DNA from: Cyanidioschyzon merolae
Taxonomy: Eukaryota
Direction: 5' to 3' (one strand)
DNA length: 64,000 nt
NCBI GenBank assembly: GCA_000091205.1
Contig: AP006485.2
Shown: positions 3,291-47,085 of the stretch, in pieces
Numbering within the stretch: the stretch's first letter is position 1
Layout of the letters: each line of letters begins with the position of its first letter
Made by a program: the position numbers and the translations under genes
Notes under the pieces: generated by a model
What the model saw: the letters and a program-made list of their open reading frames with translations, nothing else
The model's database searches: none
What the model was told of the DNA's origin: nothing

Positions 3291-4346
3291 ATGGCGTACC
3301 TCGTCTTTTTTCAAAAAGCACAGCGCGGGCTCGGTGGTAGGGTCTCGGGAGTGGCCGGCCCCAGGTGCGCAGGCGACTACCGCGGCCGTACGAGCCTGCT
3401 GGTGCCTCCGGGGATGCGGTCGCGTGCACGCCCGCATGCGCACTCGCTTCTAATGAAGGCGAGGCGTCGTAGTCTGGATGAAGTGGAAAGCACGCGAGAT
3501 AGCGTTGATGGGGCACGCGAAGAACGGTCGCACGGAGGTACTCGCGCTACGGGTGCGAACGACGGCTCCGGGCATACACGGACGGGCGAGTCGCCGTCGT
3601 TGCACGCTGCTTCGGGGCAGCCTGCCGATGGCGTGGCGTTAACGCACACCGCCAGTCAACCGGCTGCTGGCACGCACACCCAAGGGGTGACCGCAGACGT
3701 GAGCGCGCCGGAGCAACGGCAACCAGGTTTGAGTCTGTCGGAAGTGCAAGAGTTCCTGGAAGTCATGCGAGAAGTAACGCTGTATTGCAGCGATGCTCGG
3801 TTGCAGATCGGCAGCACTGTAATCGAGGTGAGCCGTCCAGATGGATTCGGATTTGATGAGCATGGCGAGTTGCGCACTGCCGAGCCACACCCGAGCACAC
3901 ACCCAGGCGACAGCAGTCCTGCGTCGGCATACAGTGCGCCCGCGATGCCCCCAGACGCTGAGTCGTCAGTACTGGGTAGCAGCGCTGCGCAGGCAACGGT
4001 CTCATCATCAACAGCATCGACGTCTGCGAGAGCTGCAATAGAGCAGCGGTCGGGGAAAACGCCCGAGCCGCGTCCTCGATATGACGATGTGTCGCAGATT
4101 CTTGACACCGACTTTAAAGTGATCAGCAATCGGGTTGGAATATTTCGAGCGGGGCCGCCCTCACGTCCGCCCTACGTCAAAGTGGGAGACCGGATCGAAG
4201 TCAAACGCCCCGTGTGCATCATTGAGCAGCTGGGGAACTACTTTGTCTACAATTCCGAGGTAAGTGGGACGGTCATCAAAGTTTGCGTCGAAGACGGGGC
4301 GCCCGTCGAATACGGCAAAGAACTTGTTATCATCCGACCGGAGTAA
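3291..4346 (+). CDS. Biotin carboxyl carrier protein (BCCP)-like protein lacking the biotinyl-lysine (BADC-like). The N-terminal start is uncertain.
   Basis: The C-terminus VISNRVGIFRAGPPSRPPYVKVGDRIEVKRPVCIIEQLGNYFVYNSEVSGTVIKVCVEDGAPVEYGKELVIIRPE aligns residue-for-residue with the E. coli BCCP biotinyl domain (...[46 protein letters not shown]). The conserved EAMKM is replaced by EQLGN. The upstream SEVQEFLEVMREVTLYCSDARLQIGSTVIEVSRP resembles the BCCP N-domain and is followed by a Pro/Ala/Ser linker. Confidence 0.55.
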   Translation: MAYLVFFQKAQRGLGGRVSGVAGPRCAGDYRGRTSLLVPPGMRSRARPHAHSLLMKARRRSLDEVESTRDSVDGAREERSHGGTRATGANDGSGHTRTGESPSLHAASGQPADGVALTHTASQPAAGTHTQGVTADVSAPEQRQPGLSLSEVQEFLEVMREVTLYCSDARLQIGSTVIEVSRPDGFGFDEHGELRTAEPHPSTHPGDSSPASAYSAPAMPPDAESSVLGSSAAQATVSSSTASTSARAAIEQRSGKTPEPRPRYDDVSQILDTDFKVISNRVGIFRAGPPSRPPYVKVGDRIEVKRPVCIIEQLGNYFVYNSEVSGTVIKVCVEDGAPVEYGKELVIIRPE

Positions 4347-5130
4347 ACTGAGAGATATCCTAGGAACCCGCGGTAGAGTCATTGTACAGTCACGAGACTG
4401 GGCGATCTTCACGGCACCAGGTATACGGGCACCGGCCATGCCCTGGGTGCGCTGCAGTGGCTCGCAAAGTGTGCCTTGCCTGCAGGGCGCCTGCGTTCCC
4501 CGCAGTCTTGCGGAAATCATCGGGCACGACGTACCGCAATGAACAATACGGAGGACTGCCCGTCGCCATTTTTTGATCGGCTCTGTGAGCGTTGATCTCG
4601 TCCCGTCGTGTTGCCGCGGAAACTCAACGACACCCAAGCGCACTCGGGCCTCCAACGGATACGGGACGGTCTCAGCTAGCTATGCATTTCGCGATAGACT
4701 CGTACGTTCAGCGGCACAACGGGGCGCTTGGAGCAGGCACTCGCACCAGCTGCACGTCCATGAACATCGCGCGACCGAATGTCGACTTGTACTGCCGACT
4801 CGACAACATCCACGGCATTGCACCCCATGATTCTAAATGAATCACCATAGACGTGCTCGGTGCAGATGCTGCATACCATCCCGCACGGGTTGCTCGCAAA
4901 GCGGGCCCTCTGGTTCACGTTGTCTCTGGCGATGCGGCTATCGACCGGGTGGCGGTGGCGAATAGCGCACGACCCTCGACGCCAACGCACGCCCGGGTTC
5001 GTTCGTTCGCAATGTGAACATTGCGTCGATGCATATGCGGATGCATATGTGTGTAAAGGTGTCGATGCTCGACGGGATCAAGCTATCCGCGACTGTTCAA
5101 TCCGGATCCTCTGCCGTCCGGGAGGGTCCT

Positions 5131-6486
5131 CTACGCTTCCCCAATCGCTGGCTGCACGTAGACAAACTCCTCGACATAAGGATGCGGCAAACTTTTGTCT
5201 TGCACATCGGGACAAATTTCCGAGCTCGACGGTACACAGTCTCGCGGGCAGGTCCAGATCGCAATCGTTCCGAAATCCAAAACAGCACGCGGGTCTTCGG
5301 AACGCACTCCACGTGTCGCCGGCGTCTGAGTAGGGCACTGTTCCGCAGGTTCCAGTTCGTTTTCCGACTCCCGGCAGAGATAATAAATTAACTGCGACAT
5401 GACCTGCACTTCGAAAACTCGTGGCATGCCGCAGAGGCCACAAGGAGGCACCTGTGCGGCTTCAAGCCTCGACTTGGATCCGAACCACAGGATCTGCTGA
5501 TTCGAAATCGTAGCTAGCTTTTGCGGGTTGTTCACAGCGATCATCGCAAGACGATCATGCAAGGGCAGGTATCGAATGACTTGGTTTCGATGGCTCCCAA
5601 GCGCCTGCTCGAATGCAAGTGCATCCGACAAATCAGAACAGCGTAAGTTTTGCTCTGTCTCGATTGTTTCTATGAATGATATCCATTCTGCTGCCGAGCA
5701 TGCATGCTCTTTTGTAGGTGCAGCATCCTCTGCGTCTACGTTCACCACACGGAGTTCCGATTCTTCAACTTGGTCGTCGATGACGCCGCTGTCGTGCTCG
5801 GAGTCGCTGTCCCAGTCGACGAGAATTTCGACCGCCGGGAAGCCGAGAGAGGGCTCCTCAGAGATGGTTGCGTCCGCCCCAGATTTGTCGTATGCTGCGT
5901 GTGCTCGCCGCGAACTTGTTCCGCCTACACGCGTCTGCTCTGCTGTTTGCTGCGGAGCCACTGCAGCGGCCGCTTGAAGCGCATCAAAACTGGCGGTGTC
6001 AGCGGCAGCACCCCGGTGTGGCGACGGAGGCGGATCAAGCCCCGACAACCCCGCCGACAAGTTCGCAGGGTACCGACGCAACGCTTCCAGGTCTTCGACT
6101 TGATCTGGGTACCAGCTATTGTGCTGTGGCAGCTGCACCCTGTATACTCGAGCAGCGCCTGAATTGTCGGCGGATCGACTAGCGCACCACGCACAGATGA
6201 ACAAGTACAACACGCGATGAAACGCCGCCGCATTGTGCCCCCGGGGCGCGTACACTTGCAAAAGGAAACGAAGTTGTCGTTTGCACGAGCCGCATCGTAA
6301 TCTTTTCGTGGCTAGGCCAGCGGGGAGCGGCACCAACCAGGCCGGTGTGCCGCCCGCTCGCGACTCGAACGGTGTCCACTGTTTCGACCTGAACAGCTCC
6401 CGTTCATACACACCGTCCTCGACGCAACCCAATATAATAGAAGATTTTGAGACTTCAACGTCCATGAAGGGTTCCAAGCAGTGCAT
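5131..6486 (-). CDS. PDCD2: PDCD2/Tsr4-like protein (PDCD2 N-domain, MYND-like zinc finger, PDCD2_C). The start is placed at an internal ATG; ATGs at 6465 or 6621 are alternatives.
   Basis: Motifs FESRAGGTPAWL...CGSCKRQLRFLLQVYAP (PDCD2 N-terminal signature) and PPCGLCGMPRVFEVQVMSQLIYYL (PDCD2_C). The ORF-track start at 6660 is GTG. Confidence 0.7.
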   Translation of the reverse strand: MHCLEPFMDVEVSKSSIILGCVEDGVYERELFRSKQWTPFESRAGGTPAWLVPLPAGLATKRLRCGSCKRQLRFLLQVYAPRGHNAAAFHRVLYLFICAWCASRSADNSGAARVYRVQLPQHNSWYPDQVEDLEALRRYPANLSAGLSGLDPPPSPHRGAAADTASFDALQAAAAVAPQQTAEQTRVGGTSSRRAHAAYDKSGADATISEEPSLGFPAVEILVDWDSDSEHDSGVIDDQVEESELRVVNVDAEDAAPTKEHACSAAEWISFIETIETEQNLRCSDLSDALAFEQALGSHRNQVIRYLPLHDRLAMIAVNNPQKLATISNQQILWFGSKSRLEAAQVPPCGLCGMPRVFEVQVMSQLIYYLCRESENELEPAEQCPTQTPATRGVRSEDPRAVLDFGTIAIWTCPRDCVPSSSEICPDVQDKSLPHPYVEEFVYVQPAIGEA

Positions 6487-6669
6487 AAAGATCTCAACGC
6501 TCACGTCTAGCGCTTCTGGTGTTTTGCATTCCCCAGAGGCTTTCGCATCGGGAGTGCCAAGTGCACCCGCCAGCACGTGTTGTGCCAGCACCGGGTCGCA
6601 CCGACAGGTCCGCAGGTACATGACGATTCTCGTGCGCAACCTCTGGTGCACGACCTGCACGCTTCAGGG

Positions 6670-9018
6670 ATGACTGCCTCTGAAGACGAACGAGCTCCGC
6701 TTGATTGGAGTCTGGACTATGTAAGGTACTTAGAAGCGAAGGAACGGATCGATGATCGAGCCATTCACTGCGAGCTCTGGGAGCGGTTTACGGGGTTCCT
6801 GCACAGCCAGCTGAGCCAAGGCCAAGCCGCAGCGACCCGACTGGAGCCGCTGCGCATCATTGACGTGGGTGCGGGTATCGGCTCGCTACTTTTTCGCTTA
6901 CTGGCAAGTTGGGAGCACGCGGAAGCGCTTGAACAAGTACGAACGTACCGTCGAGGGGTGGAATACTGGGCAGTCGACCTCAAGTCGCAGCTCCTGCGTG
7001 CACTGCTCCAGCGTCTGCAGAGCGTCGCAGCCAGCAATGAGAATCCCTGGCAATTGGAGCGCTATCATTTAGAAACGAACGTGGTGGACCACTCAAATGA
7101 CGACGAGTTGCACCAGTGCCTATCTGGTTTTGACCTCCACCGTGCCGCTGATCGCGATCAGCGACCGGCCTGCTCGCAAGCGATCCGAGCAGCTGCCACA
7201 GGTCAGGCGACTCGCGCAGAAAGCCCAGCGCCTGTAATGGACATGAAGACGCCCCTGGAACCAGGTCCAAAAACTCAACAAACAGTTGTTGTCGTTGGTG
7301 GTGGTGGTGGTGGTGGTGCTCAGAAAGCCACAGCTACTGCGGCCTCACTGGAGCATACGCGCCAGCATCGAGCCGGTGAAACTACTGGCGACGACACTAG
7401 GCACGTCGCCGAGCCACAAATCGGCCCTGGTGCGGCTTCAGTAGAAACAAGACGTTTTGAAGATAGCGACATGCCCGCCGGAACTCCAACAACGGATCCG
7501 CAAACGCATCATGCGTCGTGCCTGGGGTCAGCGAAGCTGGTACTGAAGGCATCATCGACTGGTTTCTACCTCAACGTACACTGCTATCAAGGCGATGCAG
7601 AAACTTTCTGTACGCAGCATCCCGGCACTGCAGAGGTGCTGTGGGCGTCATCTTTTTTCGATCTGCTGCTGAACGAGGCCGCCGCTGGGAGCGCATCGAA
7701 CCTGGCGTATGCGCGTTTGCGCGCCGCAATGCCCCGATTGCTGGCGACACTCAAACCCTATGGCGTATTTTATTTCCCTTTACATTACGACGGCATGACT
7801 TACTGGCTACCTAATTTTGATCCATCAAGCGCAGCGTATGAAGCAGAGCAGCAGGTGCTGGCAGCCTTTCATCGCTCGCTGAACCCCGATTGCACCGGCT
7901 TTTGTGGCCAAGCGCTCCTGGATGTTATACAAGACGCAGCGATACCTGCGCCTGCAGCATGTGATTGTACCTTTGGATACGTCACAGCGGGAGAAGTTTC
8001 TGCAGACGAACCGGCATTATCGAGTGCTGGCGTATCTCCCCAGCGTGTGCCACGAAGCACACAGCAAACCTTGGCGTCCGACTCGCTCTGCGCAATTCGT
8101 TCGGGGGCGTACGTACAGACGGCTGCTGGACAGCGCCTGGCCGGACCGCACGCGGCGATGCGACCCATGGTTACGGGCTTGGCACCCAGCACATGGTGTG
8201 TCCAGCCGTTTGCTGGGCTCGGCGTCTATTTGCCATCCACTGATGCCTATTTTCTCGAATGTATACTTAAGCTCATCGGTGGAGCTGCCTGGTCAAGCGC
8301 TTGCACCGCGTCAGAGAGGGCACGCATTGAGCGCTGGTACCAACAGCGACGCGAGCAGTTGCAGCAACGGCTGCTGACCTATGTTGCCCACAATATCGAT
8401 CTGCTAGGAATCGTCATTCCAGCGAGAATCCAGACTCGAGCGGTTGCCCGTGGCCCGGTCTTGCACTCGCCGACGGTTTGCGATTCGAGTATGGCGCCCG
8501 TACTGATGGGGATGACCGCGCGGGCCCGAGTGCCCGCCTTTGCCAAAAGTATAGAGCCAGTTGGCGTTTTCTCGTACGGAACGCTGCAATCGCCCCGCGT
8601 ACTACAAACCATTTTGGGACGCATTCCCCGATCGGTTGCCGCTGTGCTCAACGGGTATCGCGTCCACGGGGTGCGAGATGAATCATACCCAGCAGTGGCG
8701 AAATCAGCACCGGAAAATGCGCCGCACGAGGCCGTACCTGGCGTATTGCTTCTCGAGCTTACTGCAGCCGATCACGCGCTGCTGGACGCCTACGAAGGCC
8801 CACAGTACCAAAAACTGGTGGAAGAGGTCCAGATTCTGCCCCTGGGCATGAGACTCAGAGCTTTCGTGTACGTTTGGAAATCTTCCACTGATAATCTCGT
8901 TGCCTTACCGAACCAACACTGGGATTTGGATGCCTGGACGCGAACACATGAACAGAGTTTTTGCCAGGAATGCTCAGAATGGATCCGTACATTCAAGTCG
9001 GCAAATGCGGCTGAGTGA
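6670..9018 (+). CDS. Fusion protein: class-I SAM methyltransferase-like N-terminal domain (with a low-complexity insert) plus a C-terminal gamma-glutamylcyclotransferase/AIG2-like domain.
   Basis: Motif I LRIIDVGAGIGSLLFRLLA, later VLWASSFFDLLL and LKPYGVFYF (methyltransferase motifs II/III). C-terminal VFSYGTLQSPRVLQTILGRIP...GYRVHGV...YPAV...LDAYEGPQYQKLVEEVQ...AFVYVW matches the GGCT/AIG2 YGTL fold. The first in-frame ATG is at 6670 (the track start 6577 is GTG). Confidence 0.6.
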   Translation: MTASEDERAPLDWSLDYVRYLEAKERIDDRAIHCELWERFTGFLHSQLSQGQAAATRLEPLRIIDVGAGIGSLLFRLLASWEHAEALEQVRTYRRGVEYWAVDLKSQLLRALLQRLQSVAASNENPWQLERYHLETNVVDHSNDDELHQCLSGFDLHRAADRDQRPACSQAIRAAATGQATRAESPAPVMDMKTPLEPGPKTQQTVVVVGGGGGGGAQKATATAASLEHTRQHRAGETTGDDTRHVAEPQIGPGAASVETRRFEDSDMPAGTPTTDPQTHHASCLGSAKLVLKASSTGFYLNVHCYQGDAETFCTQHPGTAEVLWASSFFDLLLNEAAAGSASNLAYARLRAAMPRLLATLKPYGVFYFPLHYDGMTYWLPNFDPSSAAYEAEQQVLAAFHRSLNPDCTGFCGQALLDVIQDAAIPAPAACDCTFGYVTAGEVSADEPALSSAGVSPQRVPRSTQQTLASDSLCAIRSGAYVQTAAGQRLAGPHAAMRPMVTGLAPSTWCVQPFAGLGVYLPSTDAYFLECILKLIGGAAWSSACTASERARIERWYQQRREQLQQRLLTYVAHNIDLLGIVIPARIQTRAVARGPVLHSPTVCDSSMAPVLMGMTARARVPAFAKSIEPVGVFSYGTLQSPRVLQTILGRIPRSVAAVLNGYRVHGVRDESYPAVAKSAPENAPHEAVPGVLLLELTAADHALLDAYEGPQYQKLVEEVQILPLGMRLRAFVYVWKSSTDNLVALPNQHWDLDAWTRTHEQSFCQECSEWIRTFKSANAAE

Positions 9019-9831: not shown

Positions 9832-10656
9832 TCAGTGACGATGCGTCAGGACGACACCGAGAACGATCGCTAGGATGATCAAGATCACTAAAACGATGAT
9901 ACAGCTCGCCGCGGCCACATTCTTTTGACACATGCGTTTCTTCAAGGTTCCCGACTGCCGCTGAAACGTACCCGCCGTATTCCGGAGCGCATCGGCCTGC
10001 TCCACGAGGTCATCCAAGCGTTCGCCACGCTCCAAGACGTCTTCGATGTTGCGCTGCATCACAGCGTGAATGTCACGAACCTCGCCCTGGAGCTGGGCGA
10101 TCTTGTCCTGCCTCGTTGTGTACGTCTGGGTCAGCGCTTTGAGCGTTGGGCGAAACGCAGCGTCCAGGGCGTCCGGTTTCGTCATTCTCCGCAGGTCAGC
10201 GGGCGCATATCGCGATTCAAACTGTTCACGTACTTGCTGTAGAAAATCAAAAGCCAGTTGTCTGGGGTACCCACGCAAACACACTGCCAAGTAGATGAGG
10301 TCCTGATGAACCTGAACGTGATACCCGACGTTTCCACTGTCGTACGAGGTGCGCACATCCGTCCCAGTCGGCGTTTTATTCAAAATTCGATCCGCAATTT
10401 CCTCGAACTTTGGGCGCTCTCCCGCACCGAGACCCTCCTGGATCGCTCGACGGTCCAGGTAGGTTACCAGACGCACGGAGCTATTCCCGACAGTGACGAA
10501 GAGGATGCGTCGCGGTGCGGGGGCTGGTCGCTCCGTCTGTCCAGCACTGTCGTCGCTGCTGCGTGCCTTGCTCAAGTTTGCGTCATCACTATTCGAAACG
10601 GAGAGAGCGTTCGTCCCTTTTGAAAGGGAGGTGTTTGCCGCAGTAGTGCGCTCCAT
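9832..10656 (-). CDS. Longin-domain R-SNARE (VAMP7/synaptobrevin-like) with a C-terminal transmembrane anchor.
   Basis: Longin domain RILFVTVGNSSVRLVTYLDRRAIQEGL...GYHVQVHQDLIYLAVCL. SNARE coiled coil RGERLDDLVEQADALRNTAGTFQRQSGTLKKRMCQKN followed by a hydrophobic CIIVLVILIILAIVLGVVL. The track start 10665 is GTG; the first ATG is at 10656. Confidence 0.7.
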   Translation of the reverse strand: MERTTAANTSLSKGTNALSVSNSDDANLSKARSSDDSAGQTERPAPAPRRILFVTVGNSSVRLVTYLDRRAIQEGLGAGERPKFEEIADRILNKTPTGTDVRTSYDSGNVGYHVQVHQDLIYLAVCLRGYPRQLAFDFLQQVREQFESRYAPADLRRMTKPDALDAAFRPTLKALTQTYTTRQDKIAQLQGEVRDIHAVMQRNIEDVLERGERLDDLVEQADALRNTAGTFQRQSGTLKKRMCQKNVAAASCIIVLVILIILAIVLGVVLTHRH

Positions 10657-10865
10657 GAACTGCACACCCGTAATCCACGTTCAGGGAGGAAAGCGGACAG
10701 GCGCGTTCTGCTGTCGTTGGCATCGATCGTTTCCCCGTCGACTAGGACACGTCAGAGGTGTCGTCTCGAGTGACGTTCCCTTCGCCGCGGTCTTCCGTTA
10801 TTCGGGCACTTCTACCGAGGACGTCTGTGTTTATTGAAGGTTATTATTCATAAAACGAAAACTTC

Positions 10866-13800
10866 ATGAGAGGTAATGGCTTGGCTTGGTCTAGGTTGCT
10901 CTGGGGGCTCGTTTGGCTTGGAGTCGTGGTGTTGGCGTTCGCGAACCGAGCCACGGGGCAGCGTTATCCCCAGAGCACGTGGATCCTTGAAGAGCGAAAT
11001 CTACTTACACTGCGTCAGACCACACCACTGGAGCCAGTGCTGGGAAACAGCACTGCTGTACCCAGTGCGCGTGCATCGGTGACGGCGAGCGCGTCGCTCA
11101 ACCCGAACGCAACGCTGCTCTCGGTGCGACCCAGCGTTTCGGAGACGGGAACGCCATCGCCGTCAACAACCACAGCGACTCCAACGAGTACGGTGCTGCC
11201 GTCACCGCTGCCGTCGCCTAGCACAACGGCGACGAGCTCGCCGAGCCCGACGCCCATGGCAAGCAGCGGGCCCGCTGCAACCCCGAGTTTCCCGAGCCCG
11301 TCACCAGATACCGGTGTGGTGAACCTGCTGGCGAACTCGGGCAACGTCAGTCTATCATTGTATGAGAACAGAACGTTTCAGGAGGCGTTCGCACAAACGC
11401 TCGTGTCCAACCTGCAGAGCCAGTGCGTGCGGTGTCAGAACGCTTCAGCTATTCAATTAACCATGTTCAGGTACACATCTGGTTACTTTCGCCTGAATCA
11501 CTCCAACAGCTCCCGAAACAACACCTCGGATACCAGTGGCAATGGAGGCAACGGGCCGGTAACGGCACCGGTGCTGACCAACCGTCGACGCCGCATGCTT
11601 CAAACCTGGCAATGGCTCACTGGGAAGCGCTCGACCTCGCCTCCCGTGCAGAACATCGCTGGGTCTGTCGTTGGACGTGCCAGCAGCACCGCTGGATCCG
11701 GCACAAGCGACGGAACCGATGTTGCAGTGGCGTTGCAGGTGGCGGCGGACCCAGCGGATATACCCACGGTTGAGAATCGAACCTCGTCGGGGCTCCTGAC
11801 GGCGGTGCTCGCTACCAGTTCGAATATCACCAATGCCTCGATGCAGGTCGTCGCTCGCACCGCAGCGTTCGGTGAGGGTGCCGAGGACCCGTTCAAGGGC
11901 TCCGGGCTCGGTAGCGTCCACAGCGGGGCGGTGTCCACAGGTGCCATTGTGGGTGCAGTGATCGGCTCTGTGGCTGGCGTCCTGCTGGCGATGATCTTCG
12001 CCTTCATGCTTTGGAGACGGTGCCGACGCCAAGCGGCGAAGCAAGAGGCACTCCGCACCAAGGAGGCTGCCGAGGCAGCTGCCCGCAAGTATCGCGAGCA
12101 ACAGTCCGCTATGGCTGCTGCTGCCGCCGCTGCACAGCGCCTCTCGAGCGGCTCTGGTCGACCGATTCCACCAACATTACCGCAAGACCAGTCCGCTGGT
12201 GGAGACGCCGCATCACGTGCTCGCTATGCTGGCGTTGTGACGCTGCGGGAGCTCGCTCGAACGCGTATTCTCCAAGGCATGATGCGCATCGTGCAAGCTG
12301 CCGAGGCGGAGTCGAACGCTGCGTCTGCCGCACTCATTCGTAGCGATAACCAACGCAAACTGGTATTTTTGATCGTTGCAGATCGACGTGCGCTAGCGGT
12401 ATTGTCGGCAGCGTGTCGCTTGACAGACCTCATCCAAGAGGGTGCCTTCGTGGTGGAGTCGCTCGAGAGTGAGCGTGAGCCATTGCCGCGCATGTCGGCG
12501 GTGTATTTTGTAGCGCCGGAGCTAGCTTCATTCGATCGCCTTGTTGCCGACTTCCCGGATACGCAAACCGCAGCACATCCATCAGACGGGGCCGGTCAGC
12601 GCCTCGCTGACGCTGGTCCAGGGACGAGCGTCAGCCGCACGGCGCCAAGGAGCGCTGGGTCCGGCCCCGAGAGCGGCGCTGCGGGGCGTCTGGCGGCGAG
12701 TCCCGCGAACGCGCGTACACCACGGGCTCGCTGGGGTTCGGGCGCTGCACCCGGGCCACCCGGCGCTACCACGACAGCTTCGGGGCCACGCTATCGAGCG
12801 GCACATGTGTTCACCACGGCTCGCGTGCCAGATGCGCTGTTGGACCTTCTGCGGCAGTCGTCGTGTCTGGTCCAGCGGCTCTTGACGTTTACGGAGCTCA
12901 ACCTGGACTTTATGGCTATCGAGGAGCGCATCTTCTCCCTGGACTATCCGAATGCACTGGAGATGCTATTCGCCCCGGGCAGTGCCGCAGGTCACGATGA
13001 TGATCATGATGGTGCTGCGCTTCCAGGCTGGGCATCTGCCTGGGATGCACGCCCAGCAGCGTTGCAGCCGCCCCCAGGCGCCTGTTCGGATATGGTCCAG
13101 CGTATTGCCCAGAACCTGCTGACGCTCTGCCACCTTCTGGGCGAGGTGCCAACGATTCGCTACCAACGAAGCGAAAGCGGCGTTGCGCAGAGCATCGCTG
13201 AGGCGCTCCTCGACGCCATCCGAGACTACGAGGCCAATGTACCCGGCGGGATGCGTGGTGCGCAGCTGGAAGCGGCTGCCGTCGAGCAGAACGCCAGCAC
13301 CGCAGCAGCTCCCAGCGAGGACAAGTCCTCTGCTGGTACCAGCACCAATACCATGCTGCTGATTCTGGACCGTTCTGTGGATATGGTGGCTCCCTTTCTC
13401 CACGAATATACGTACCAGGCGATGTGCAACGATCTGCTAGCAGCGGATGCGCTGGATAGCGGCACCACGCGCTATACCTACGTGGTGCGTGAAGGCGACT
13501 CCACCGCCAGCACCACCCGGGAAGCCTTTCTGGACGAGTACGCTGACCAGACCTGGGCCCGTCTTCGTCATCTGCATATCGCGGACGCTATCAGCGAGAT
13601 CAGCGAGGAGCTGCAGGGAACTACAGTGCGTTCATTGGGCGCCGCGCTGCAGGGCGCCTCCGCTGCTCGAAACGCGCCCCCGGAGAGCACTGCCATGCCC
13701 TATGAACAGATGCAGAAACTGAGCAAATACGCGGTGCACATGGATATCCTAGATTGTCTGATGCATCGTTTCAATGATCGGTATCTTCAGCGTACCTCGC

Positions 13801-14933
13801 TTTGTGAACAGGATCTCGCGTGTGGTCTAGTGGATTGTCACGGGAACCTGCTCTCGTCGACAGAGGCAGCACAGCGGATTTCGTTGATCCTCCAGGATGC
13901 GCATGTGCCGCTGGAGGACAAGGTGCGCTTGTTGGCAATCGTGCTGGTCACCATGGATATGAGTGCACGTGATGTCGACGATCTCCTGGAGACCATGGAG
14001 GATGTGGGTCTAGGGCGAGAACTCGTGTCGGCGTTGCTACGTGCACGCCTGGGTGTGCATCTCGCCAAGGAGCCTGGTGAGTGCCAAGCGCTTGCGGAGC
14101 GTGCGCTGCGCTACTTTCGCGCAAGTCGTGGCGAATCCTACGATCTATCTCGCTATGTTCCGTTCCTGCGGGAAATCCTTGAAGCTATTGCGCGTGATCG
14201 TCTCTCGCGGAGTCGGTTTCCGATCCTCTTCAGTGCAGAGCGGGAGTCGGCAGGTCGCCAGCCCCCAGACGACGCGTTGACGCGAGGCCGCTCACGCTCG
14301 CTCTCGCGGGAGCGAGACGTTGCCGGTCGGGTACCTACGCGGAACCGCGCAGCCTCGGTACGCAGACGACGCTCATCATCGGTCGTGCGTCGTCGCTCTG
14401 ACTCTGCCGATGACCTGGAGCGCGGTTCAGGGCGAGAGCTCTCCAGTGCCAGCGAAGACGAAGCCGCTACCCTGAATGGAACCGAGCGGATTAGTGATAG
14501 CAAACGACCTCGTCGACGGGTGGTCGTCTTTATTGCTGGTGGCATGTGCGCGTCTGAGATGCGAGTTAGCTACGAGGTATCGGCGGAGTTGCCGCTGAAT
14601 GTGTACCTTGGAGCGACGCATGTGTTGACGCCTACTCGGATGCTTGAGGCACTGCGAGGCCTGAATCGCACGCTGTACGCTGGCGAGATGCAACGAGAAC
14701 GTCGACCAGTGAGTGCTTCAGAGCAGCGTCGTGGTGCACGTTCGACACCTGCGGTATGGCCACCACCGGGCGAGCCGAGTACCAGCGGCAACCTGCGACT
14801 GGGTACCGGGCTTGCCTCTGAAGCTGCCACCGCGTTTGATAGTGCCGCAACTCCTTATCCCTCGAATGACGGCTTTGCACCGCGCAGGCGTCGTTCAAGT
14901 AGTCTTTCGCGCTTTTTCAGCCGTCGGTCATAG
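10866..14933 (+). CDS. Composite ORF. N-terminal ~410 aa has a signal peptide, Ser/Thr/Pro-rich mucin-like region, one TM helix and a short basic tail. It runs in frame into a Sec1/Munc18-family domain (~12240-14700). This is either a true fusion or two genes missing an intervening stop.
   Basis: Signal peptide MRGNGLAWSRLLWGLVWLGVVVLAFA. ATPTSTVLPSPLPSPSTTATSSPSPTP repeats with many N-x-S/T sites. TM helix GAIVGAVIGSVAGVLLAMIFAFMLW followed by RRCRR. Sec1/Munc18 signatures RKLVFLIVADRRALAVLSAACRLTDLIQEGAFVVESL, MSAVYFVAPE, LILDRSVDMVAPFLHEYTYQAMCNDLL, and C-terminal RRVVVFIAGGMCASEMRVSYEV...VYLGATHVLTPTRMLEAL. The start is ATG. Confidence 0.6.
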   Translation: MRGNGLAWSRLLWGLVWLGVVVLAFANRATGQRYPQSTWILEERNLLTLRQTTPLEPVLGNSTAVPSARASVTASASLNPNATLLSVRPSVSETGTPSPSTTTATPTSTVLPSPLPSPSTTATSSPSPTPMASSGPAATPSFPSPSPDTGVVNLLANSGNVSLSLYENRTFQEAFAQTLVSNLQSQCVRCQNASAIQLTMFRYTSGYFRLNHSNSSRNNTSDTSGNGGNGPVTAPVLTNRRRRMLQTWQWLTGKRSTSPPVQNIAGSVVGRASSTAGSGTSDGTDVAVALQVAADPADIPTVENRTSSGLLTAVLATSSNITNASMQVVARTAAFGEGAEDPFKGSGLGSVHSGAVSTGAIVGAVIGSVAGVLLAMIFAFMLWRRCRRQAAKQEALRTKEAAEAAARKYREQQSAMAAAAAAAQRLSSGSGRPIPPTLPQDQSAGGDAASRARYAGVVTLRELARTRILQGMMRIVQAAEAESNAASAALIRSDNQRKLVFLIVADRRALAVLSAACRLTDLIQEGAFVVESLESEREPLPRMSAVYFVAPELASFDRLVADFPDTQTAAHPSDGAGQRLADAGPGTSVSRTAPRSAGSGPESGAAGRLAASPANARTPRARWGSGAAPGPPGATTTASGPRYRAAHVFTTARVPDALLDLLRQSSCLVQRLLTFTELNLDFMAIEERIFSLDYPNALEMLFAPGSAAGHDDDHDGAALPGWASAWDARPAALQPPPGACSDMVQRIAQNLLTLCHLLGEVPTIRYQRSESGVAQSIAEALLDAIRDYEANVPGGMRGAQLEAAAVEQNASTAAAPSEDKSSAGTSTNTMLLILDRSVDMVAPFLHEYTYQAMCNDLLAADALDSGTTRYTYVVREGDSTASTTREAFLDEYADQTWARLRHLHIADAISEISEELQGTTVRSLGAALQGASAARNAPPESTAMPYEQMQKLSKYAVHMDILDCLMHRFNDRYLQRTSLCEQDLACGLVDCHGNLLSSTEAAQRISLILQDAHVPLEDKVRLLAIVLVTMDMSARDVDDLLETMEDVGLGRELVSALLRARLGVHLAKEPGECQALAERALRYFRASRGESYDLSRYVPFLREILEAIARDRLSRSRFPILFSAERESAGRQPPDDALTRGRSRSLSRERDVAGRVPTRNRAASVRRRRSSSVVRRRSDSADDLERGSGRELSSASEDEAATLNGTERISDSKRPRRRVVVFIAGGMCASEMRVSYEVSAELPLNVYLGATHVLTPTRMLEALRGLNRTLYAGEMQRERRPVSASEQRRGARSTPAVWPPPGEPSTSGNLRLGTGLASEAATAFDSAATPYPSNDGFAPRRRRSSSLSRFFSRRS

Positions 14934-40892: not shown

Positions 40893-42262
40893 TCAAAGCG
40901 AACGCTGAACAGCTCGTTCCGCTCCTGCTTTGTGATTCTTTTCTGAACGTTTTTATTTGACGCCAACGCTAGCCATTCGAAAAGCATAAACAGGTGTTCG
41001 TGGACTCGTGTATAGTTTTGGGATTCCTGTGAGCGTGCCTCCATCGACGCTTTGCAGATGGGATGCGTTCTCCTCATCGGCATCAGGATGACGCTCGATT
41101 CTGTCCAATATGCTTACCTACATGCATCCCCGCTACTCCTTTCCGTAAACGTACAAGAATCAACAAGTTCGCTCTTCGAGGTCTCCAGCTTACCGTGTTC
41201 ACGGCAACGCGTAGGTACGGCAACTCACGTCGCTGGAGACGCTGGAAAGAGAGCACAACGTCGTCCCTGACCGACTTGCTCGCTAGCTTGTAGTGAGCGC
41301 CCACTGCGCTCGTCACCTCAAAGGTAACCCATGTCGTCCGAAAGCCGTACCCTACGCTCTTCGTTGCCACCGACGAAGAGACACTCGACGAGACCGGCCT
41401 GCTGCCTCTCACGGCATACGCGCACAGGCGCCCCGGGTATCCTCTGTTTGCACTGATAACGGTCTGCGACTCAGACTCGAGTCATCGCAGCAGTCGCTTC
41501 GCGTAGCGCGTACGTCACCGCGTCGGACAGCGTTGCGCGTTGACGGACCAGGATCAACCCCGGAGTGCTTCCCCAGCCTGGAGGCTCTCTCGCTCTCTCC
41601 GGTCCCTGCTTCACCACGATCGGTATCGCGTTCCGGAACTCGTCTATAGAATGGAACAGCGAGCGCTTGTGTATGCAGCAGATAGCCTATTCACCGACAC
41701 GATCGCTCAGAAGGAGCTCGTGATCCCACGGTACTGCACCGAGTGCGGACACCAGGCATGGCAACCCGGAGAGCCCGCTGTACCTTCAAGCGGCGTCTAC
41801 GGACTGACGGAGCAAGCGATCATACGTCACTGCAGACAAGTACGCGGTAACGCATGCGCTGTGGCAGACGTACGTGTATGCGTATCGAACGAGAAGCGAT
41901 TGTGAGTGTATCGACGGGCGACCCGCGGTTGTATCCAAGGACGATCATGGAAATGGGAAGCGCAGTCTAGATGCCAAGCTCCGCCTGTGCATAAAATGCG
42001 TCGATGAGCGTCGGAAATCGCGGAATCGGGACTTGAGCACGACCATCAGAGTGTTGCAACGATCGACACTGGAAGAAGAGGGACCCTGCGGATGTATGTG
42101 GTGACAGTCGGATATCTGATCGAGGAAAAGGAACCCGTCGCATACAAGACCCGCAAATGCTCGTCTTTACGCCAACTGAAACACAAATCCAATATTCATC
42201 CTGAATCTCCGAGTCCTGCAAGTTGACCATTCCACTTTATACGCTGACACGAACGCTAAACG
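40893..42262 (+). mobile_element. ~1.37-kb TnpB/Fanzor-like element, copy A. It carries a TnpB-type ORF broken across three + frames (IS1341/IS607-like tnpB-only architecture).
   Basis: Frame 41293: ...GIRAQAPRVSSVCTDNGLRLRLESSQQSLRVARTSPRRTAL (RuvC-I-like GIDLG...SDG region). Frame 41540: RYRVPELVYRMEQRALVYAADSLFTDTIAQKELVIPRYCTECGH (zinc finger CxxC). Frame 41874: LCIKCVDERRKSRNRDLSTTIRVL (second CxxC plus RuvC-III-like RDxNAAxNI). It is near-identical to 48628-49997 with a constant 7,735-bp offset. Confidence 0.6.
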
Positions 42263-42382
42263 CTCAAGTTCGCTGGAGCGCTACCCTGAGGGCAGCTCGC
42301 GCGCCGCCGATGGCACGAATCCCTCTGAACATGCCGTGGACCTGCTGGATACCGGTATCGTGAACGCTGACATTGTGAACCC

Positions 42383-42841
42383 ATGTTTCGCCTGGGGTTT
42401 TCCATCCAGCGTCATGCTCCAAAGTGCCCGTTTTTGCATATAGAACTGCCAACGCGACAAAGGCGCACAGCGGTGTGCCCAGCGGCGAAAACCGCGGTCA
42501 CTGCCTCTCGTCGCCCGAGGCTTGCTATGGTGATCCCCGGTGACTCGCAAGCAGAGTTTGTTTTTCTCAGCGGAACCGTAACGTTCTTGAACGTCTACCA
42601 AAACCTCTTATTTGCTCGCATTATTTTGAGCTGGTTTCCGGCTGCGAGCCAGTTGAGTCTATTACAGCCGCTGTACGTGGTATGTGACCCGTTCTTGCGC
42701 TTTTTTCAGGGCATCTTACCACCAGTGGCGGGTATCGACTTTTCGCCGATCTTAGGGTTTACACTTTTACAGCTAGGTGCGAGGCTAACGGCGGCGCTCG
42801 GTCAGGAGTGCCCCAGCCGCGACGTTGCCAAGGCACCCTAA
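42383..42841 (+). CDS. YGGT-family membrane protein (Ycf19/YlmG-like, plastid/cyanobacterial type) with an N-terminal presequence.
   Basis: FLNVYQNLLFARIILSWFPAASQLSLLQPLYVVCDPFLRFFQGILPPVAGIDFSPILGFTLLQLGARLTAAL matches the YGGT signature (…WFP…CDP.L..FRGIIPP.GG.D.SPI…). The start is ATG. Confidence 0.7.
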   Translation: MFRLGFSIQRHAPKCPFLHIELPTRQRRTAVCPAAKTAVTASRRPRLAMVIPGDSQAEFVFLSGTVTFLNVYQNLLFARIILSWFPAASQLSLLQPLYVVCDPFLRFFQGILPPVAGIDFSPILGFTLLQLGARLTAALGQECPSRDVAKAP

Positions 42842-43783
42842 GCGCCTAGTGTGTTTGTGGTGTGACGTTATTCGCGCGCCAGTCTCGCCCAGCGGTTGTC
42901 GGTTCGTGCCTAGCAGCGCATCGTATCCAAAGTTGATCGTTCCCTGCTACGAATACGACGGGAGACACTGTTGCGTGTTTTCGCTGGAACGACGGATATC
43001 GGCTGGCTTGGAACGTTGGCGTCGTCGGGGAATCCACCTAGGCTAGCGTGTTATCGAAGAATCGGAACTGAGTACGATGAGTCTTGGCTAATATAGCGAT
43101 CGTGGTAATGCGCTACGGCTTTGGTGAGCAGGTTCCTCGGGAGCGTCGTGCTTGACGTCAGACGTAGCTGCTTGACAGGGAGAGAGCGAACGCGAGTTCG
43201 TGGGAATGTTATCCGATCTGCATTGGAGGCAGCTTTATCGCCCCTGAGCCTCGTCTCTGCAACACTTGTGACGTCGCTGATCCTTGCGGTTGTCTTTGAT
43301 GAATGAATTGCAGCTGGTTATGGTATGAGGCAGTGCTCCGTCGTGCATGCAGTGTGCCTTTCGATGGTCCGAATCGTTCGGTGTCGAGCGCACTTCTCAG
43401 GGTCACGGCGTTGCGCGTGGCCTAATGTCTGCGCTAGCGACGGTAGCGCGGTGATGAAGATGTCGCATCCTGGACCCGCATGACAGCTGCAAATCAAACG
43501 AAGACTCTACGGGAACACAGACTTATATCGTTTCGTAGCCAGCCAAGAAAAAATGTTTGCGGAGAAGGTGCGCTCTAGAGCGACCCTTTGCGTGGAAGCG
43601 ATAGTTGATGTGTTCCGGGCATTTGTCAGGCACCCTGCTACTTGCTTCCTCGCTGATACCACAGCGTATAAAATCCATCATATTCGGGCGGGAATCGCTC
43701 TCGGCTGGAGTCAGGGCACCGAAAGCTGTCCCAGCAACCGCGTACCTACAGATAGCTGGATATGCCGGCACCAGCGACACGAC

Positions 43784-44353
43784 TCAGGTTTCTGCAAATG
43801 CGCTTGCACGTCGTTTGCGGTACCAGTCAAACCAGAAAAAGAAAGCACTCTGGCGGAACTGGTCTGGAAGCTTCCAGGGATCGTCGCCGCGCTGGCTGCC
43901 GCCTTTGCCGGAGCCTTCCCTGCCAGCGCTGGCAGAAGCATCGACGCCAGATGGATTAATGTAACCCGTGCCGTTGCAACGACCACAAGTCACACGCCCG
44001 GTAGCACTGCAACGCAAACAGGCGTGAGGCACGCGTTCGCCTTCTACTTGGAAAAAGGTTTTCCCCTGGCACTGGAAGCACTTGACACGTCCCTCGCCTC
44101 GGCAGTCAGGGCACCGCCGTGGGCCACTTTTTTCAGTCTGTCTCCGTGCCTGAACTATCCGGTAAGCACCAACCGTGATAAACGCTGCTCCAACCGCAAT
44201 GGCAGCCTCCTTCTTCCAGAGTAGAAGCGGCACGGGCGGAGCGAAGTGGAGCACCCCGCTTCCGGCCTTAGGTACTGCCGCAGGACAGTTTTGCAACGCC
44301 AACCGACGACAACAGTGCTGAACACCCGTCACAAGATCAGGCGAAAAGTTCAT
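43784..44353 (-). CDS. DnaJ-like CR-type zinc-finger membrane protein (CxxCxGxG x4; BSD2/LQY1/PSA2-like).
   Basis: TM helix AIAVGAAFITVGAYRIV followed by RRCPDCRGEGRVKCFQCQGKT...CLRCSATGRVTCGRCNGTG (four CxxCxGxG units). The track start 44395 is TTG; the first ATG is at 44353. Confidence 0.6.
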   Translation of the reverse strand: MNFSPDLVTGVQHCCRRLALQNCPAAVPKAGSGVLHFAPPVPLLLWKKEAAIAVGAAFITVGAYRIVQARRQTEKSGPRRCPDCRGEGRVKCFQCQGKTFFQVEGERVPHACLRCSATGRVTCGRCNGTGYINPSGVDASASAGREGSGKGGSQRGDDPWKLPDQFRQSAFFFWFDWYRKRRASAFAET

Positions 44354-44705
44354 TTGCGTAGTCGTATATGCGATAGAACCCCGTTCGGAAAGCAACTCGC
44401 GATCGACGCTACCAAGTGCAGCGAAACGCGATACGGTGGTGGAAGCGAAACAAACGCTGGCTTCGACGACGCCAGCGATCCCCCGGGGGATGACGCTTCA
44501 CGAACCATTCGCTCCTGTTGCTGCGTTTGGAGGTGTATTCGGGGTTCCTCGGGTTTATCCAATCGACTAGACACAGCAATTCTGCAACAGAGAAGTAGCT
44601 GGGGCCTGTAGAGTACGGAGTCTGGATAGTCCGGACGTTCGGTGCTGACACGCTGGTCTGAGCTGGTGCATACGAAGCGCTGGAAACTCGAGTCGCTCAG
44701 CGGAC

Positions 44706-46694: not shown

Positions 46695-47085
46695 GTGACT
46701 CGGGTGGATGCAGCCCCCGGAAGAACTGTTGTATGCAGCAATCACGTGGCAAGCACATTGTGAGGATTCGGCACGACGCTTTCAGCGATATAGCGAAAGC
46801 GGTTCGTTTGAAGGCTTCAGACGAGCCAGCACTTGGATTCGATGTGTGCACGGTAACGCACTGACCCAGTCGTTGGCCAATGGCCGACTGCAAGCGCACG
46901 ATAGTCCGAGGGCATGCGACACCTTCACCCGCTGTGCAGCGTGTTACTCATGAAGCATTGGTATAGGAATATACGAATATGCGGATCCACGCCTAGGACT
47001 GCATCCGTAGATGACTGGAGGCTGGTGGCTCGCCGGCCGGTCCGCCAGCCCATGTTCGAGGTGCAATGATTGCTCTCGGGTGATG

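What the first reader, a model, noticed from the sequence alone, without database searches (positions are those of the whole stretch)
10866..14933. Mucin-like type-I membrane glycoprotein region in frame with a Sec1/Munc18 protein
A 1355-codon ATG-initiated ORF begins with a signal peptide, a ~300-aa Ser/Thr/Pro-rich N-glycosylation-rich ectodomain, a single TM helix and a basic stop-transfer. It then runs without a stop into a complete Sec1/Munc18-family protein, which is normally a soluble cytosolic SNARE chaperone. It is either a genuinely membrane-tethered Sec1/Munc18 protein, which would be unusual, or two adjacent genes whose intervening stop is missing. An internal start at MAAAAAAAQRL (~12112) would give a normal Sec1/Munc18 protein.
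Basis: seen in the sequence. Interest (0 to 1): 0.55.

Follow-up and report, generated by a model that had tools for sequence, protein, structure and literature searches.

The report
Membrane-anchored Sec1/Munc18 protein of red algae
The long ORF is one real, already annotated gene (CMC019C of the red alga Cyanidioschyzon merolae) whose product is a normally soluble vesicle-fusion chaperone joined to a signal peptide, a mucin-like outer domain and a membrane anchor; this design is conserved across its whole algal class and, as far as I could find, has not been discussed in print.

Summary
Window 10866..14933 (+) is one uninterrupted 1355-codon ORF. It runs: signal peptide, S/T/P-rich stretch, folded juxtamembrane ectodomain, one TM helix, basic stop-transfer, a 72-aa linker, then a full-length Sec1/Munc18-subfamily domain.

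The window is C. merolae 10D chromosome 3 (NC_010129.1:32001-96000). The ORF is the annotated gene CMC019C, "vesicle transport protein Rop".

The two-genes or lost-stop reading is rejected:
- The same fused ORF occurs in five independent assemblies of Cyanidioschyzon, Cyanidiococcus and Cyanidium, and in Galdieria, which has two paralogs.
- The TM-to-SM linker is under purifying selection as strong as the SM core, while synonymous sites are saturated.
- No internal Met is conserved.

Among 148 Sec1-family proteins checked (mostly 50%-identity cluster representatives), only Cyanidiophyceae proteins carry such an anchor.

The gene sits next to a VAMP7-type R-SNARE gene in every lineage examined. 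Published RNA-seq shows both genes are specific to the walled diploid phase.

Best reading: a type-I membrane-anchored exocytic SM protein serving diploid-phase secretion. Topology, location and partners are inferred, not shown.

The gene is known. The architecture is flagged only in a supplementary table and is not discussed. I class it as a new variant of a known kind, of moderate-to-high interest.

The parts
9832..10656 (-). CMC018C, a longin + synaptobrevin (VAMP7-type) R-SNARE gene, divergently transcribed from the SM gene
   Evidence: Pfam Longin and Synaptobrevin. GFF coordinates 41832..42656 in NC_010129.1. Diploid-specific, logFC 7.6.
10657..10865 (.). 209-bp shared divergent intergenic region (candidate bidirectional promoter). 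A block of about 60 nt at ~10704-10763 is conserved in Cyanidiococcus and in metagenomic locus L004.
   Evidence: DNA alignment A5. Both flanking genes are diploid-enriched. Promoter function is inferred.
10866..14933 (+). [quoted passage not shown]
   Evidence: The GFF gives CMC019C CDS 42866..46933, which is the window coordinate plus 32000.
10866..10958 (+). Signal peptide, aa 1-31 (MRGNGLAWSRLLWGLVWLGVVVLAFANRATG)
   Evidence: Hydrophobicity. A hydrophobic N-terminus follows the chosen start codon in all five orthologous ORFs. SignalP 'SP(Sec/SPI)' for CMC019C in PMC13353863 Data Set 8.
10959..11315 (+). S/T/P-rich mucin-like stretch, aa 32-150
   Evidence: S 19%, T 18%, P 18%. Variable in length and sequence between species but always present.
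11316..11939 (+). Juxtamembrane ectodomain, aa 151-358. Beta-alpha-beta (150-205), disordered N-glycosylation-rich insert (210-282), beta-alpha-alpha-beta (286-335). Invariant CxxC at C187/C190.
11940..12014 (+). Single transmembrane helix, aa 359-383 (GAIVGAVIGSVAGVLLAMIFAFMLW)
   Evidence: KD19 maximum 2.53. The G-x-I-x-G-x-V-x-G motif is shared with the Galdieria proteins. Phobius gives 1 TM segment for CMC019C.
12015..12230 (+). Cytosolic linker, aa 384-455. Basic stop-transfer RRCRRQ, a helix to about aa 427, then a Gly/Pro-rich flexible part. Contains Met416 (ATG at 12111-12113).
   Evidence: 86-92% amino-acid identity among the three Cyanidioschyzon/Cyanidiococcus-type lineages compared (49% to Cyanidium), pN 0.05-0.11 vs pS 0.67-0.80. 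Helix in the AF2 model. Met416 is not conserved.
12231..14660 (+). Complete Sec1/Munc18-subfamily SM domain, aa 456-1265. Two lineage-specific low-complexity inserts: aa 571-640 (12576-12785) and the Arg/Ser-rich loop aa 1126-1215 (14241-14510).
   Evidence: Pfam Sec1 3-574/575. PDB sequence hits STXBP1/2/3, squid Sec1 and Unc18 at E 1e-55 to 6e-40, against Sly1 4e-12 and Vps45 4e-8. The hits are colinear over Munc18-1 residues 28-581.
14661..14933 (+). C-terminal tail, aa 1266-1355, ending in the conserved motif RRRRSSSLSRFFSRR(S), plus stop
   Evidence: Alignment A1.

Best explanation
CMC019C is one gene encoding a single-pass type-I membrane protein. Its cytosolic part is a complete exocytic (Sec1/Munc18-subfamily) SM protein.

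**Proposed mechanism**
- The signal peptide directs the N-terminus into the ER.
- The mucin-like stretch and the ferredoxin-like ectodomain stay luminal or extracellular and are probably glycosylated.
- The TM helix followed by RRCRR stops transfer. The SM domain therefore stays in the cytosol, held to the membrane by a linker of about 70 residues.
- Anchored in this way, the SM domain would be constitutively concentrated at the plasma membrane or secretory-vesicle membrane, rather than cycling on and off through syntaxin binding.
- There it would template assembly of a SYP1-type Qa-SNARE with a VAMP7-type R-SNARE. The most likely R-SNARE partner is the product of its neighbour gene CMC018C.
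- This would serve a secretory route used mainly by the cell-walled diploid phase.

**Shown**
- One ORF.
- Class-wide conservation of the architecture.
- Purifying selection across the junction.
- SM subfamily assignment.
- Predicted signal peptide and TM helix.
- Gene adjacency to VAMP7.
- Diploid-phase co-expression (published RNA-seq).

**Inferred**
- Topology, glycosylation, location, SNARE partners and physiological role.
For: **1. One ORF in every lineage.** An uninterrupted ORF of about 1350 codons, with a hydrophobic N-terminus after the chosen start, occurs in all five loci: the window, L003, Cyanidiococcus L002, metagenome L004 and Cyanidium L001.

**2. Selection across the junction.** Synonymous sites between these species are saturated (pS 0.67-0.80). 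The linker aa 384-455 has pN 0.05-0.11 in the three comparisons among C. merolae, Cyanidiococcus and L004, equal to the SM core.

**3. Same architecture in Galdieria.**
- G. sulphuraria GJD10261.1 / XP_005708010.1 (P0009, P0155) has signal peptide, S/T/P-rich stretch, ectodomain, TM, linker, SM domain and RS loop.
- A second paralog (P0156-like) has TM, linker and SM domain.
- TM plus linker align between C. merolae and Galdieria at E 7e-8.

**4. Restricted to this class.** Of 148 Sec1-family proteins with a detectable domain 1, 13 have a strongly hydrophobic segment 50-75 aa upstream of the SM start. These are the window's orthologs, two Galdieria sulphuraria proteins and unnamed metagenome proteins of the same type. 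A further 133 start within 30 aa of their N-terminus. The next-best hits are ordinary 595-653 aa proteins, for example from Rhodelphis.

**5. Exocytic subfamily, full length.**. The domain-3a hairpin motif MP..LSKY..H aligns to Munc18-1.

**6. Positive-inside rule and extracytosolic signs.** There is 1 Lys in the 17 aa before the TM helix, against 7 Arg/Lys in the 17 aa after it. The ectodomain has 12 sequons against 3 elsewhere, plus an invariant CxxC.

**7. Published annotation and expression.** The GFF has CMC019C as one CDS. PMC13353863 Data Set 8 lists it as SP(Sec/SPI), 1 TM segment, category SEC. TPM is about 80 in diploid cells against 3-4 and 14-17 in the two haploid strains. Neighbour CMC018C (VAMP71) has logFC 7.6.

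**8. Conserved adjacency.** The SM gene lies next to the VAMP7 gene in Cyanidium, Cyanidiococcus, L003, L004 and Galdieria.
Against: - There is no direct protein-level or transcript-end evidence. The RNA-seq values are per gene and cannot separate isoforms.
- The stored copy of the Cyanidiococcus proteome table was cut before the row I expected for the ortholog (my guesses at its id found nothing).
- The AF2 model of the cytosolic part was too poor to verify the SM fold or any docking of the linker (mean pLDDT 44.6).
- The ectodomain model is only moderate (mean pLDDT 53).
- The SNARE partners are inferred from gene adjacency and co-expression only.
- In G. partita the adjacent VAMP71 gene is barely diploid-biased (logFC 0.5).
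- Post-translational cleavage that frees a soluble SM protein is not excluded.
Confidence: 0.72

Rival explanations
1. Two functional units share one ORF. The full-length membrane protein is made, but the working SM protein is a soluble form. This form would come either from an internal transcription or translation start (Met416 or nearby), or from proteolytic cleavage in the linker or ectodomain, as in SEA-type autoproteolysis or regulated release of membrane-tethered factors.
For: - Met416 lies 40 aa before the SM domain and would give a normal-sized SM protein.
- The linker has a flexible Gly/Pro-rich part at aa 428-451.
- The ectodomain has a ferredoxin-like fold, the fold class of SEA domains.
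Against: - Met416 is Lys in both Cyanidium sequences.
- Met positions between the TM helix and the SM domain differ in every lineage. P0156 has none before the first SM helix.
- The linker is as constrained as the SM core. That is not expected of a mere leader or spacer that is discarded.
- No SEA family match and no GSVVV-like cleavage motif were seen.
Confidence: 0.18
2. Two separate adjacent genes, a mucin-like membrane glycoprotein and a soluble Sec1, merged by a lost stop codon, a sequencing or assembly error, or annotation read-through.
For: The only support is the prior expectation that SM proteins are soluble.
Against: - The same fusion occurs without a stop in five independent assemblies, from separate isolate genomes and metagenomes.
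- It also occurs in intron-containing Galdieria gene models from two annotations.
- The would-be intergenic stretch is 86-92% identical in protein in the three comparisons among C. merolae, Cyanidiococcus and L004, while synonymous sites are saturated.
- The chance of 455 stop-free codons is about 2e-7 per lineage.
Confidence: 0.03
3. The SM-like domain has lost SNARE-chaperone function. The protein would then be a surface glycoprotein or receptor that uses the SM fold as a cytosolic scaffold or signalling domain.
For: - Cyanidiales genomes hold 10 SM genes, far more than the 4 canonical families, so some paralogs could be neofunctionalised.
- The protein has large lineage-specific Arg/Ser-rich inserts.
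Against: - The SM core has dN/dS of about 0.07-0.09.
- Pfam coverage is full length.
- Similarity to Munc18-1 is colinear and includes the domain-3a hairpin motif.
- Linkage and co-expression with an R-SNARE gene point to SNARE-related work.
Confidence: 0.07

Closest known systems
Munc18-1/STXBP1, squid and yeast Sec1, Drosophila Rop, Arabidopsis KEULE/SEC11 (exocytic Sec1/Munc18 subfamily)
   Same: - Full-length Sec1 domain.
- Best sequence matches among solved structures are STXBP1/2/3, s-Sec1 and Unc18 (E 1e-55 to 6e-40).
- The conserved domain-3a hairpin motif is present.
- The current annotation already names the gene 'Rop'.
   Different: - All of these are soluble or peripheral proteins whose SM domain starts within about 30 aa of the N-terminus (133 of the 148 proteins).
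- They reach membranes by binding syntaxins or partners. The Vps45 paper title (PMC2199362) says it cycles on and off membranes. KEULE is called 'membrane-associated' in PMC13353863.
- CMC019C instead has a 455-aa N-terminal extension with signal peptide, ectodomain and TM helix. It also has two Arg/Ser- or Gly/Ala-rich inserts and a basic Ser-rich tail.
Recruitment of Munc18-1 by the syntaxin N-peptide
   Same: [quoted passage not shown] From my own knowledge, not checked here: the N-peptide is thought to act mainly by recruiting the SM protein to the SNAREs. A covalent membrane anchor would achieve that proximity permanently.
   Different: The tether here is natural, covalent and placed at the N-terminus of the SM protein itself. 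Whether the cyanidiophycean SYP1 syntaxins retain an N-peptide was not tested.
Type-I mucin-like membrane proteins with a juxtamembrane ferredoxin-like or SEA-type domain (MUC1, MUC16; protocadherin-15 MAD12), and yeast Wsc1/Mid2 wall sensors
   Same: - The ectodomain follows the same plan: signal peptide, S/T/P-rich stretch, small alpha/beta domain next to the membrane, single TM helix, basic stop-transfer.
- The Wsc1/Mid2 comparison comes from my own knowledge.
   Different: - No sequence-family match.
- The fold match is generic; polymerase palm, RAMP and RNase P proteins score equally.
- None of these proteins carries an SM domain in its cytosolic tail.
Other SM genes of Cyanidiophyceae listed in PMC13353863 (CMI070C; Cd. 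caldarium g153 and g912; G. partita g1423 and g1424)
   Same: All are tabulated as category 'SEC' with 1-2 predicted TM segments, most with a signal peptide, and mostly diploid-enriched. G. partita g1423 and g1424 lie next to a VAMP71 gene, as CMC019C does.
   Different: - CMI070C and the Cyanidium genes are separate paralogs whose sequences I could not obtain. Whether their N-terminal parts are related to that of CMC019C is untested.
- CMD164C and CMA010C are listed with 0 TM segments.

Membership tests
Sec1/Munc18 (SM) protein family, Pfam PF00995 | Full-length Sec1 domain scoring above the curated threshold | tested here: met
   277.7 bits against a cut-off of 30.7, profile positions 3-574 of 575. 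The orthologs and the Galdieria proteins also match.
Sec1/Munc18 (SM) protein family, Pfam PF00995 | Arch-shaped three-domain fold with a central cavity | tested here: inconclusive
   The AF2 model of aa 384-1290 from an 11-sequence alignment had mean pLDDT 44.6 and pTM 0.37, too poor to compare. Sequence colinearity with Munc18-1 residues 28-581 supports the fold only indirectly.
Exocytic Sec1/Munc18 subfamily (as opposed to Sly1, Vps45, Vps33) | Closest to Sec1/Munc18/Unc18 rather than to the other three SM subfamilies | tested here: met
   STXBP1/2/3, s-Sec1 and Unc18 at E 1e-55 to 6e-40. Sly1 at 4e-12, Vps45 at 4e-8, and no Vps33 hit at E <= 0.001. No phylogeny was made. Koumandou et al. 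2007 placed a C. merolae sequence in the Sec1p clade but did not say which gene.
Exocytic Sec1/Munc18 subfamily | Binds a Qa-SNARE (syntaxin/SYP1) and templates SNARE assembly | not testable with these tools
   Only indirect evidence: a conserved domain-3a motif, and adjacency to and co-expression with a VAMP7-type R-SNARE gene.
Canonical SM proteins as soluble or peripheral cytosolic proteins (a general property, not a formal criterion) | No signal peptide and no TM segment; the SM domain starts at the N-terminus | tested here: not met
   A signal peptide plus one TM helix lie 455 aa before the SM domain. 133 of 148 family proteins start within 30 aa of the N-terminus.
Type-I single-pass membrane glycoprotein | Cleavable N-terminal signal peptide, one TM helix, positive charges on the cytosolic side | tested here: met
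   Hydrophobicity and charge distribution. Published SignalP and Phobius calls for CMC019C. These are predictions only; cleavage and topology have not been tested experimentally.
Type-I single-pass membrane glycoprotein | Actual N- or O-glycosylation of the ectodomain | not testable with these tools
   12 sequons in the 355 aa before the TM helix, and 55% S/T/P in aa 32-150.
SEA domain (PF01390) of membrane mucins | Sequence match to the family; G/SVVV-type autoproteolysis site | tested here: not met
   No Pfam hit for the N-terminal 455 aa even at E <= 1. No such motif appears in alignment A1.
SEA domain (PF01390) of membrane mucins | Beta-alpha-beta-beta-alpha-beta ferredoxin-like sandwich next to the membrane | tested here: inconclusive

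The most novel reading that the evidence does not exclude
Cyanidiophyceae may have evolved, and kept through at least one duplication, a class of integral-membrane SM proteins. In these, a wall-facing glycosylated mucin or SEA-like ectodomain would be mechanically or chemically coupled to the exocytic SNARE-assembly chaperone on the other side of the same membrane. The state of the extracellular matrix or cell wall could then directly mark or gate the sites where secretory vesicles fuse. This would be outside-in control of exocytosis without a signalling cascade, used for wall building in the diploid phase.
Probability: 0.15. Interest if true: 0.85.

Novelty: new variant of a known kind. Interest (0 to 1): 0.6.

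Why it matters
SM proteins are described as soluble factors. How and why they are recruited to SNAREs (N-peptide, Habc domain, tethering complexes) is still debated.

A natural SM protein that is permanently anchored by a transmembrane helix, and that has been conserved and duplicated across a whole algal class, is a ready-made experiment. It asks whether membrane proximity alone can replace regulated recruitment, and what an SM protein gains from an extracellular domain.

C. merolae is genetically tractable, has very few trafficking genes, and now has an accessible diploid phase in which this gene and its neighbouring R-SNARE gene are switched on (PMC13353863). Anchor-deletion and tagging experiments are therefore feasible.

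The finding also flags that the 10 SM genes per Cyanidiales genome include several with predicted membrane anchors. That point sits in a supplementary table and is not discussed.

Tried and rejected
- **Source organism.** My first guess from intronless ORFs and GC content was a kinetoplastid. I dropped it because genes alternate strands and homologs are from Cyanidiales.
- **Exact-sequence look-up of the 1355-aa product.** Not on record. The gene was identified instead through the GFF in the supplement of PMC13353863.
- **Homolog search with the N-terminal module, aa 151-455.** No hits, because low-complexity words filled the candidate list. A profile search with TM + linker + SM, low-complexity parts removed, returned only 6 proteins. 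The paralogs CMI070C and CMD164C therefore could not be retrieved or examined directly.
- **Pfam on the N-terminal 455 aa.** Only sub-threshold TM/juxtamembrane look-alikes: ErbB1 TM, EphA2 TM, Giardia VSP tail.
- **AF2 of the cytosolic linker + SM part.** Confidence was too low to use. No fold search was run on it.
- **Linker as a built-in syntaxin N-peptide mimic** (LRTKEAA compared with DRTQEL). Rejected, because the motif is absent in Cyanidium (LLTKAAA) and in Galdieria.
- **Conserved internal start codon.** Rejected.
- **Proteome evidence for the Cyanidiococcus ortholog.** The stored supplement is truncated before the row I expected for it; searches for guessed ortholog ids found nothing.
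- **Literature.** Searches for a described natural TM-anchored SM protein, or for the gene IDs, found nothing beyond the supplementary table. The library is incomplete, so absence is not proof.

Full report
**1. Observation**

The ORF exists exactly as described: window 10866..14933, + strand, ATG start, 1355 codons. The other two forward frames carry 10 and 8 stops in the first 455 codons. At this GC content the chance of 455 stop-free codons is about 2e-7.

- A hydrophobic N-terminus (aa 5-29).
- A stretch of 55% Ser+Thr+Pro (aa 32-150).
- 12 N-X-S/T sequons before the membrane segment, against 3 in the 1000 residues after it.
- One strongly hydrophobic helix (aa ~359-383) followed by WRRCRRQ.
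- A Pfam Sec1 match covering profile positions 3-574 of 575 (E 4e-82).

One correction is needed. Only about 120 residues are mucin-like. Residues 151-358 form a partly ordered domain (section 5).

**2. Where the window comes from**

Large intronless ORFs alternate between strands at about 57% GC. The best homologs come from Cyanidiococcus yangmingshanensis and Cyanidium caldarium.

The GFF deposited as a supplement to PMC13353863 lists three genes on NC_010129.1, C. merolae 10D chromosome 3:
- CMC018C at 41832..42656 (-)
- CMC019C at 42866..46933 (+)
- CMC020C at 47927..49753 (-)

These are the window coordinates of the three ORFs plus 32000. Pfam on the neighbouring ORFs reproduces the annotated gene order: BCCP, PDCD2, AIG2, VAMP7, Sec1, 5'-nucleotidase, pyruvate kinase, ERO1.

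[quoted passage not shown] The annotated CDS already includes the N-terminal extension.

**3. One gene or two?**

I fetched the orthologous loci:
- Cyanidium caldarium (L001)
- Cyanidiococcus (L002)
- a near-identical C. merolae-type metagenome contig (L003)
- a further metagenomic species (L004)

In each locus the reading frame is open for about 1350 codons. Taking the first in-frame ATG (for Cyanidium, the annotated ATG), each ORF begins with a hydrophobic signal-like N-terminus. This includes the two metagenome contigs, where a prokaryotic gene caller had started the gene at an internal GTG.

The protein alignment shows the whole series conserved: signal peptide, S/T/P stretch, ectodomain, TM helix, linker, SM domain.

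Synonymous sites between these species are saturated (pS 0.67-0.80). In the three comparisons among C. merolae, Cyanidiococcus and L004, the 72-residue stretch between the TM helix and the SM domain has pN of only 0.05-0.11 and 86-92% amino-acid identity, as constrained as the SM core. The Cyanidium comparison is much more diverged throughout: 49% identity in the linker and 57-65% in the SM core. If this stretch were the gap between two genes, that constraint would not be expected.

The internal Met416 is Lys in both Cyanidium sequences. Met positions between the TM helix and the SM domain differ in every lineage. One Galdieria-type paralog (P0156) has none before the first SM helix.

A lost stop, a sequencing error and a merged annotation can therefore be set aside. 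An additional soluble isoform cannot be excluded from sequence alone.

**4. How widespread the architecture is**

I searched the SM part against 1.84 billion representative proteins and got 1815 hits.
- 13 of 148 proteins have a strong hydrophobic segment (KD19 2.3-2.9) 50-75 residues before the SM start. These are the window's orthologs, two Galdieria sulphuraria proteins and unnamed metagenome or sequencing-run proteins of the same type.
- 133 proteins start their SM domain within 30 residues of the N-terminus.
- One long outlier (P0112) has no hydrophobic segment.

Galdieria sulphuraria GJD10261.1 / XP_005708010.1 (1207 and 1219 aa) shows the same order of parts, including an Arg/Ser-rich loop. 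Its TM helix and linker align colinearly with those of C. merolae (E 7e-8).

A second Galdieria paralog lies head-to-head with the first.

The next-best hits are ordinary proteins of 595-653 aa, for example from Rhodelphis.

The supplement of PMC13353863 independently lists further 'SEC' genes with predicted signal peptide and/or TM segments: CMI070C, two Cyanidium genes, and G. partita g1423 and g1424. It also states that each Cyanidiales genome has 10 SM genes. The main text does not comment on the anchors.

**5. The parts**

*SM domain.* By sequence the SM part belongs to the exocytic Sec1/Munc18 subfamily. STXBP1/2/3, squid Sec1 and Unc18 match at E 1e-55 to 6e-40, against Sly1 at 4e-12 and Vps45 at 4e-8. 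The five aligned segments are colinear with Munc18-1 residues 28-581 and include the domain-3a hairpin motif.

Two lineage-specific inserts interrupt the domain: aa 571-640 and the Arg/Ser-rich loop aa 1126-1215. The protein ends in a conserved RRRRSSSLSRFFSRR tail.

*Ectodomain.* An AF2 model of aa 141-475 has mean pLDDT 53. The ordered elements reach 74-82:
- beta-alpha-beta (aa 150-205)
- a disordered insert (aa 210-282)
- beta-alpha-alpha-beta (aa 286-335)
- one long helix through the membrane and on to about aa 427

*Cytosolic part.* The AF2 model of this part failed (pLDDT 44.6).

**6. Context**

The SM gene is next to a longin/synaptobrevin (VAMP7-type) R-SNARE gene in every locus examined. 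In Cyanidiales the two are head-to-head, 209-328 bp apart. In G. sulphuraria they are tail-to-head.

The C. merolae intergenic region holds a block of about 60 nt that is conserved in Cyanidiococcus and L004.

In the published RNA-seq:
- CMC019C has about 80 TPM in diploid cells, against 3-4 and 14-17 TPM in the two haploid strains.
- CMC018C is essentially diploid-only (logFC 7.6).

The authors suggest that diploid-enriched SM proteins and a diploid-specific SYP1 act in wall construction.

**7. Mechanism proposed**

The protein is a type-I membrane protein. The ectodomain is outside or luminal, and the SM domain is held at the cytosolic face by a linker of about 70 residues. It would act as a permanently membrane-resident exocytic SNARE chaperone for diploid-phase secretion, probably together with the neighbouring VAMP7-type R-SNARE and a SYP1 syntaxin.

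For Munc18-1, the syntaxin N-peptide plus the SNARE bundle suffice for activation (PMC2911676). A covalent anchor would supply proximity without an N-peptide.

Topology, glycosylation, location and partners are inferences. The main rival is a soluble working form made by an internal start or by cleavage.

**8. Novelty**

The gene and its Sec1 identity are known. Its predicted signal peptide and TM segment appear in a 2026 supplementary table. I found no paper that describes or discusses a naturally transmembrane-anchored SM protein, though the searchable library is incomplete.

I class it as a new variant of a known kind. A SNARE/SM specialist would probably find it surprising, and it is directly testable in a tractable organism.

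Noticed in passing
window 10657-10865, conserved block at ~10704-10763: The divergent intergenic region between the R-SNARE gene CMC018C and the SM gene CMC019C contains a block of about 60 nt (GTTCTGCTGTCG..ATCGATCGTTTCCCCGTCGACTAGGACACGTC). It has the palindromes CGATCG and GTCGAC and an ACGT core. The block is conserved in Cyanidiococcus and in metagenomic L004 even though synonymous sites are saturated. It is a candidate shared element for diploid-phase expression of both genes.
   Followed up: partly
L008 4327-14881 (Galdieria sulphuraria BPMW01000056.1); L005-L007: Galdieria has two TM-anchored Sec1 paralogs arranged head-to-head. The P0156-like copy lies at 7030..4342 (-), inside a gene model of 1621 aa. 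P0009 lies at 10001..13999 (+) and is followed directly by a longin/synaptobrevin gene (14037..14881, +). SM and R-SNARE adjacency is therefore conserved across the class, but the orientation is not.
   Followed up: partly
window 14241-14510 and 14886-14930 (aa 1126-1215 and 1341-1355): There is an Arg/Ser-rich loop inside the SM domain (RSRSLSRERD...SVRRRRSSSVVRRRSDS..DLERGSGRE) and a C-terminal RRRRSSSLSRFFSRR tail. Both are nearly invariant in Cyanidiales, and the loop has a counterpart in Galdieria. They look like clustered sites for basophilic kinases. Their function is unknown.
   Followed up: no
PMC13353863 supplementary Data Sets (not in the window): Each Cyanidiales genome is reported to hold 10 SM genes, in genomes of about 4,800 genes or more (the reported range for the class is 4,800-7,800), against 4 canonical SM families. 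Several of them (CMI070C; Cd. caldarium g153 and g912; G. partita g1423 and g1424) are tabulated with a signal peptide and/or TM segments. The paper's text does not remark on this.
   Followed up: partly
L003 7700-8029 (-) and 8001 (+); L004 1391-1741 (-) and 1761 (+): In the two JGI metagenome contigs a prokaryotic gene caller truncated this eukaryotic gene at an internal GTG and called a spurious antisense ORF over the S/T/P-rich region. This is why database entries P0001 and P0003 lack the signal peptide.
   Followed up: yes
window 6577-9018 (+): CMC017C ('similar to AIG2') is an 813-aa ORF as listed from a GTG start, with a C-terminal GGACT/AIG2-like gamma-glutamyl cyclotransferase domain. 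It also has weak, sub-threshold N-terminal matches to SAM methyltransferase families. The listed ORF overlaps the start of the oppositely oriented ORF 5131-6660; the annotated ATG start is further downstream.
   Followed up: no
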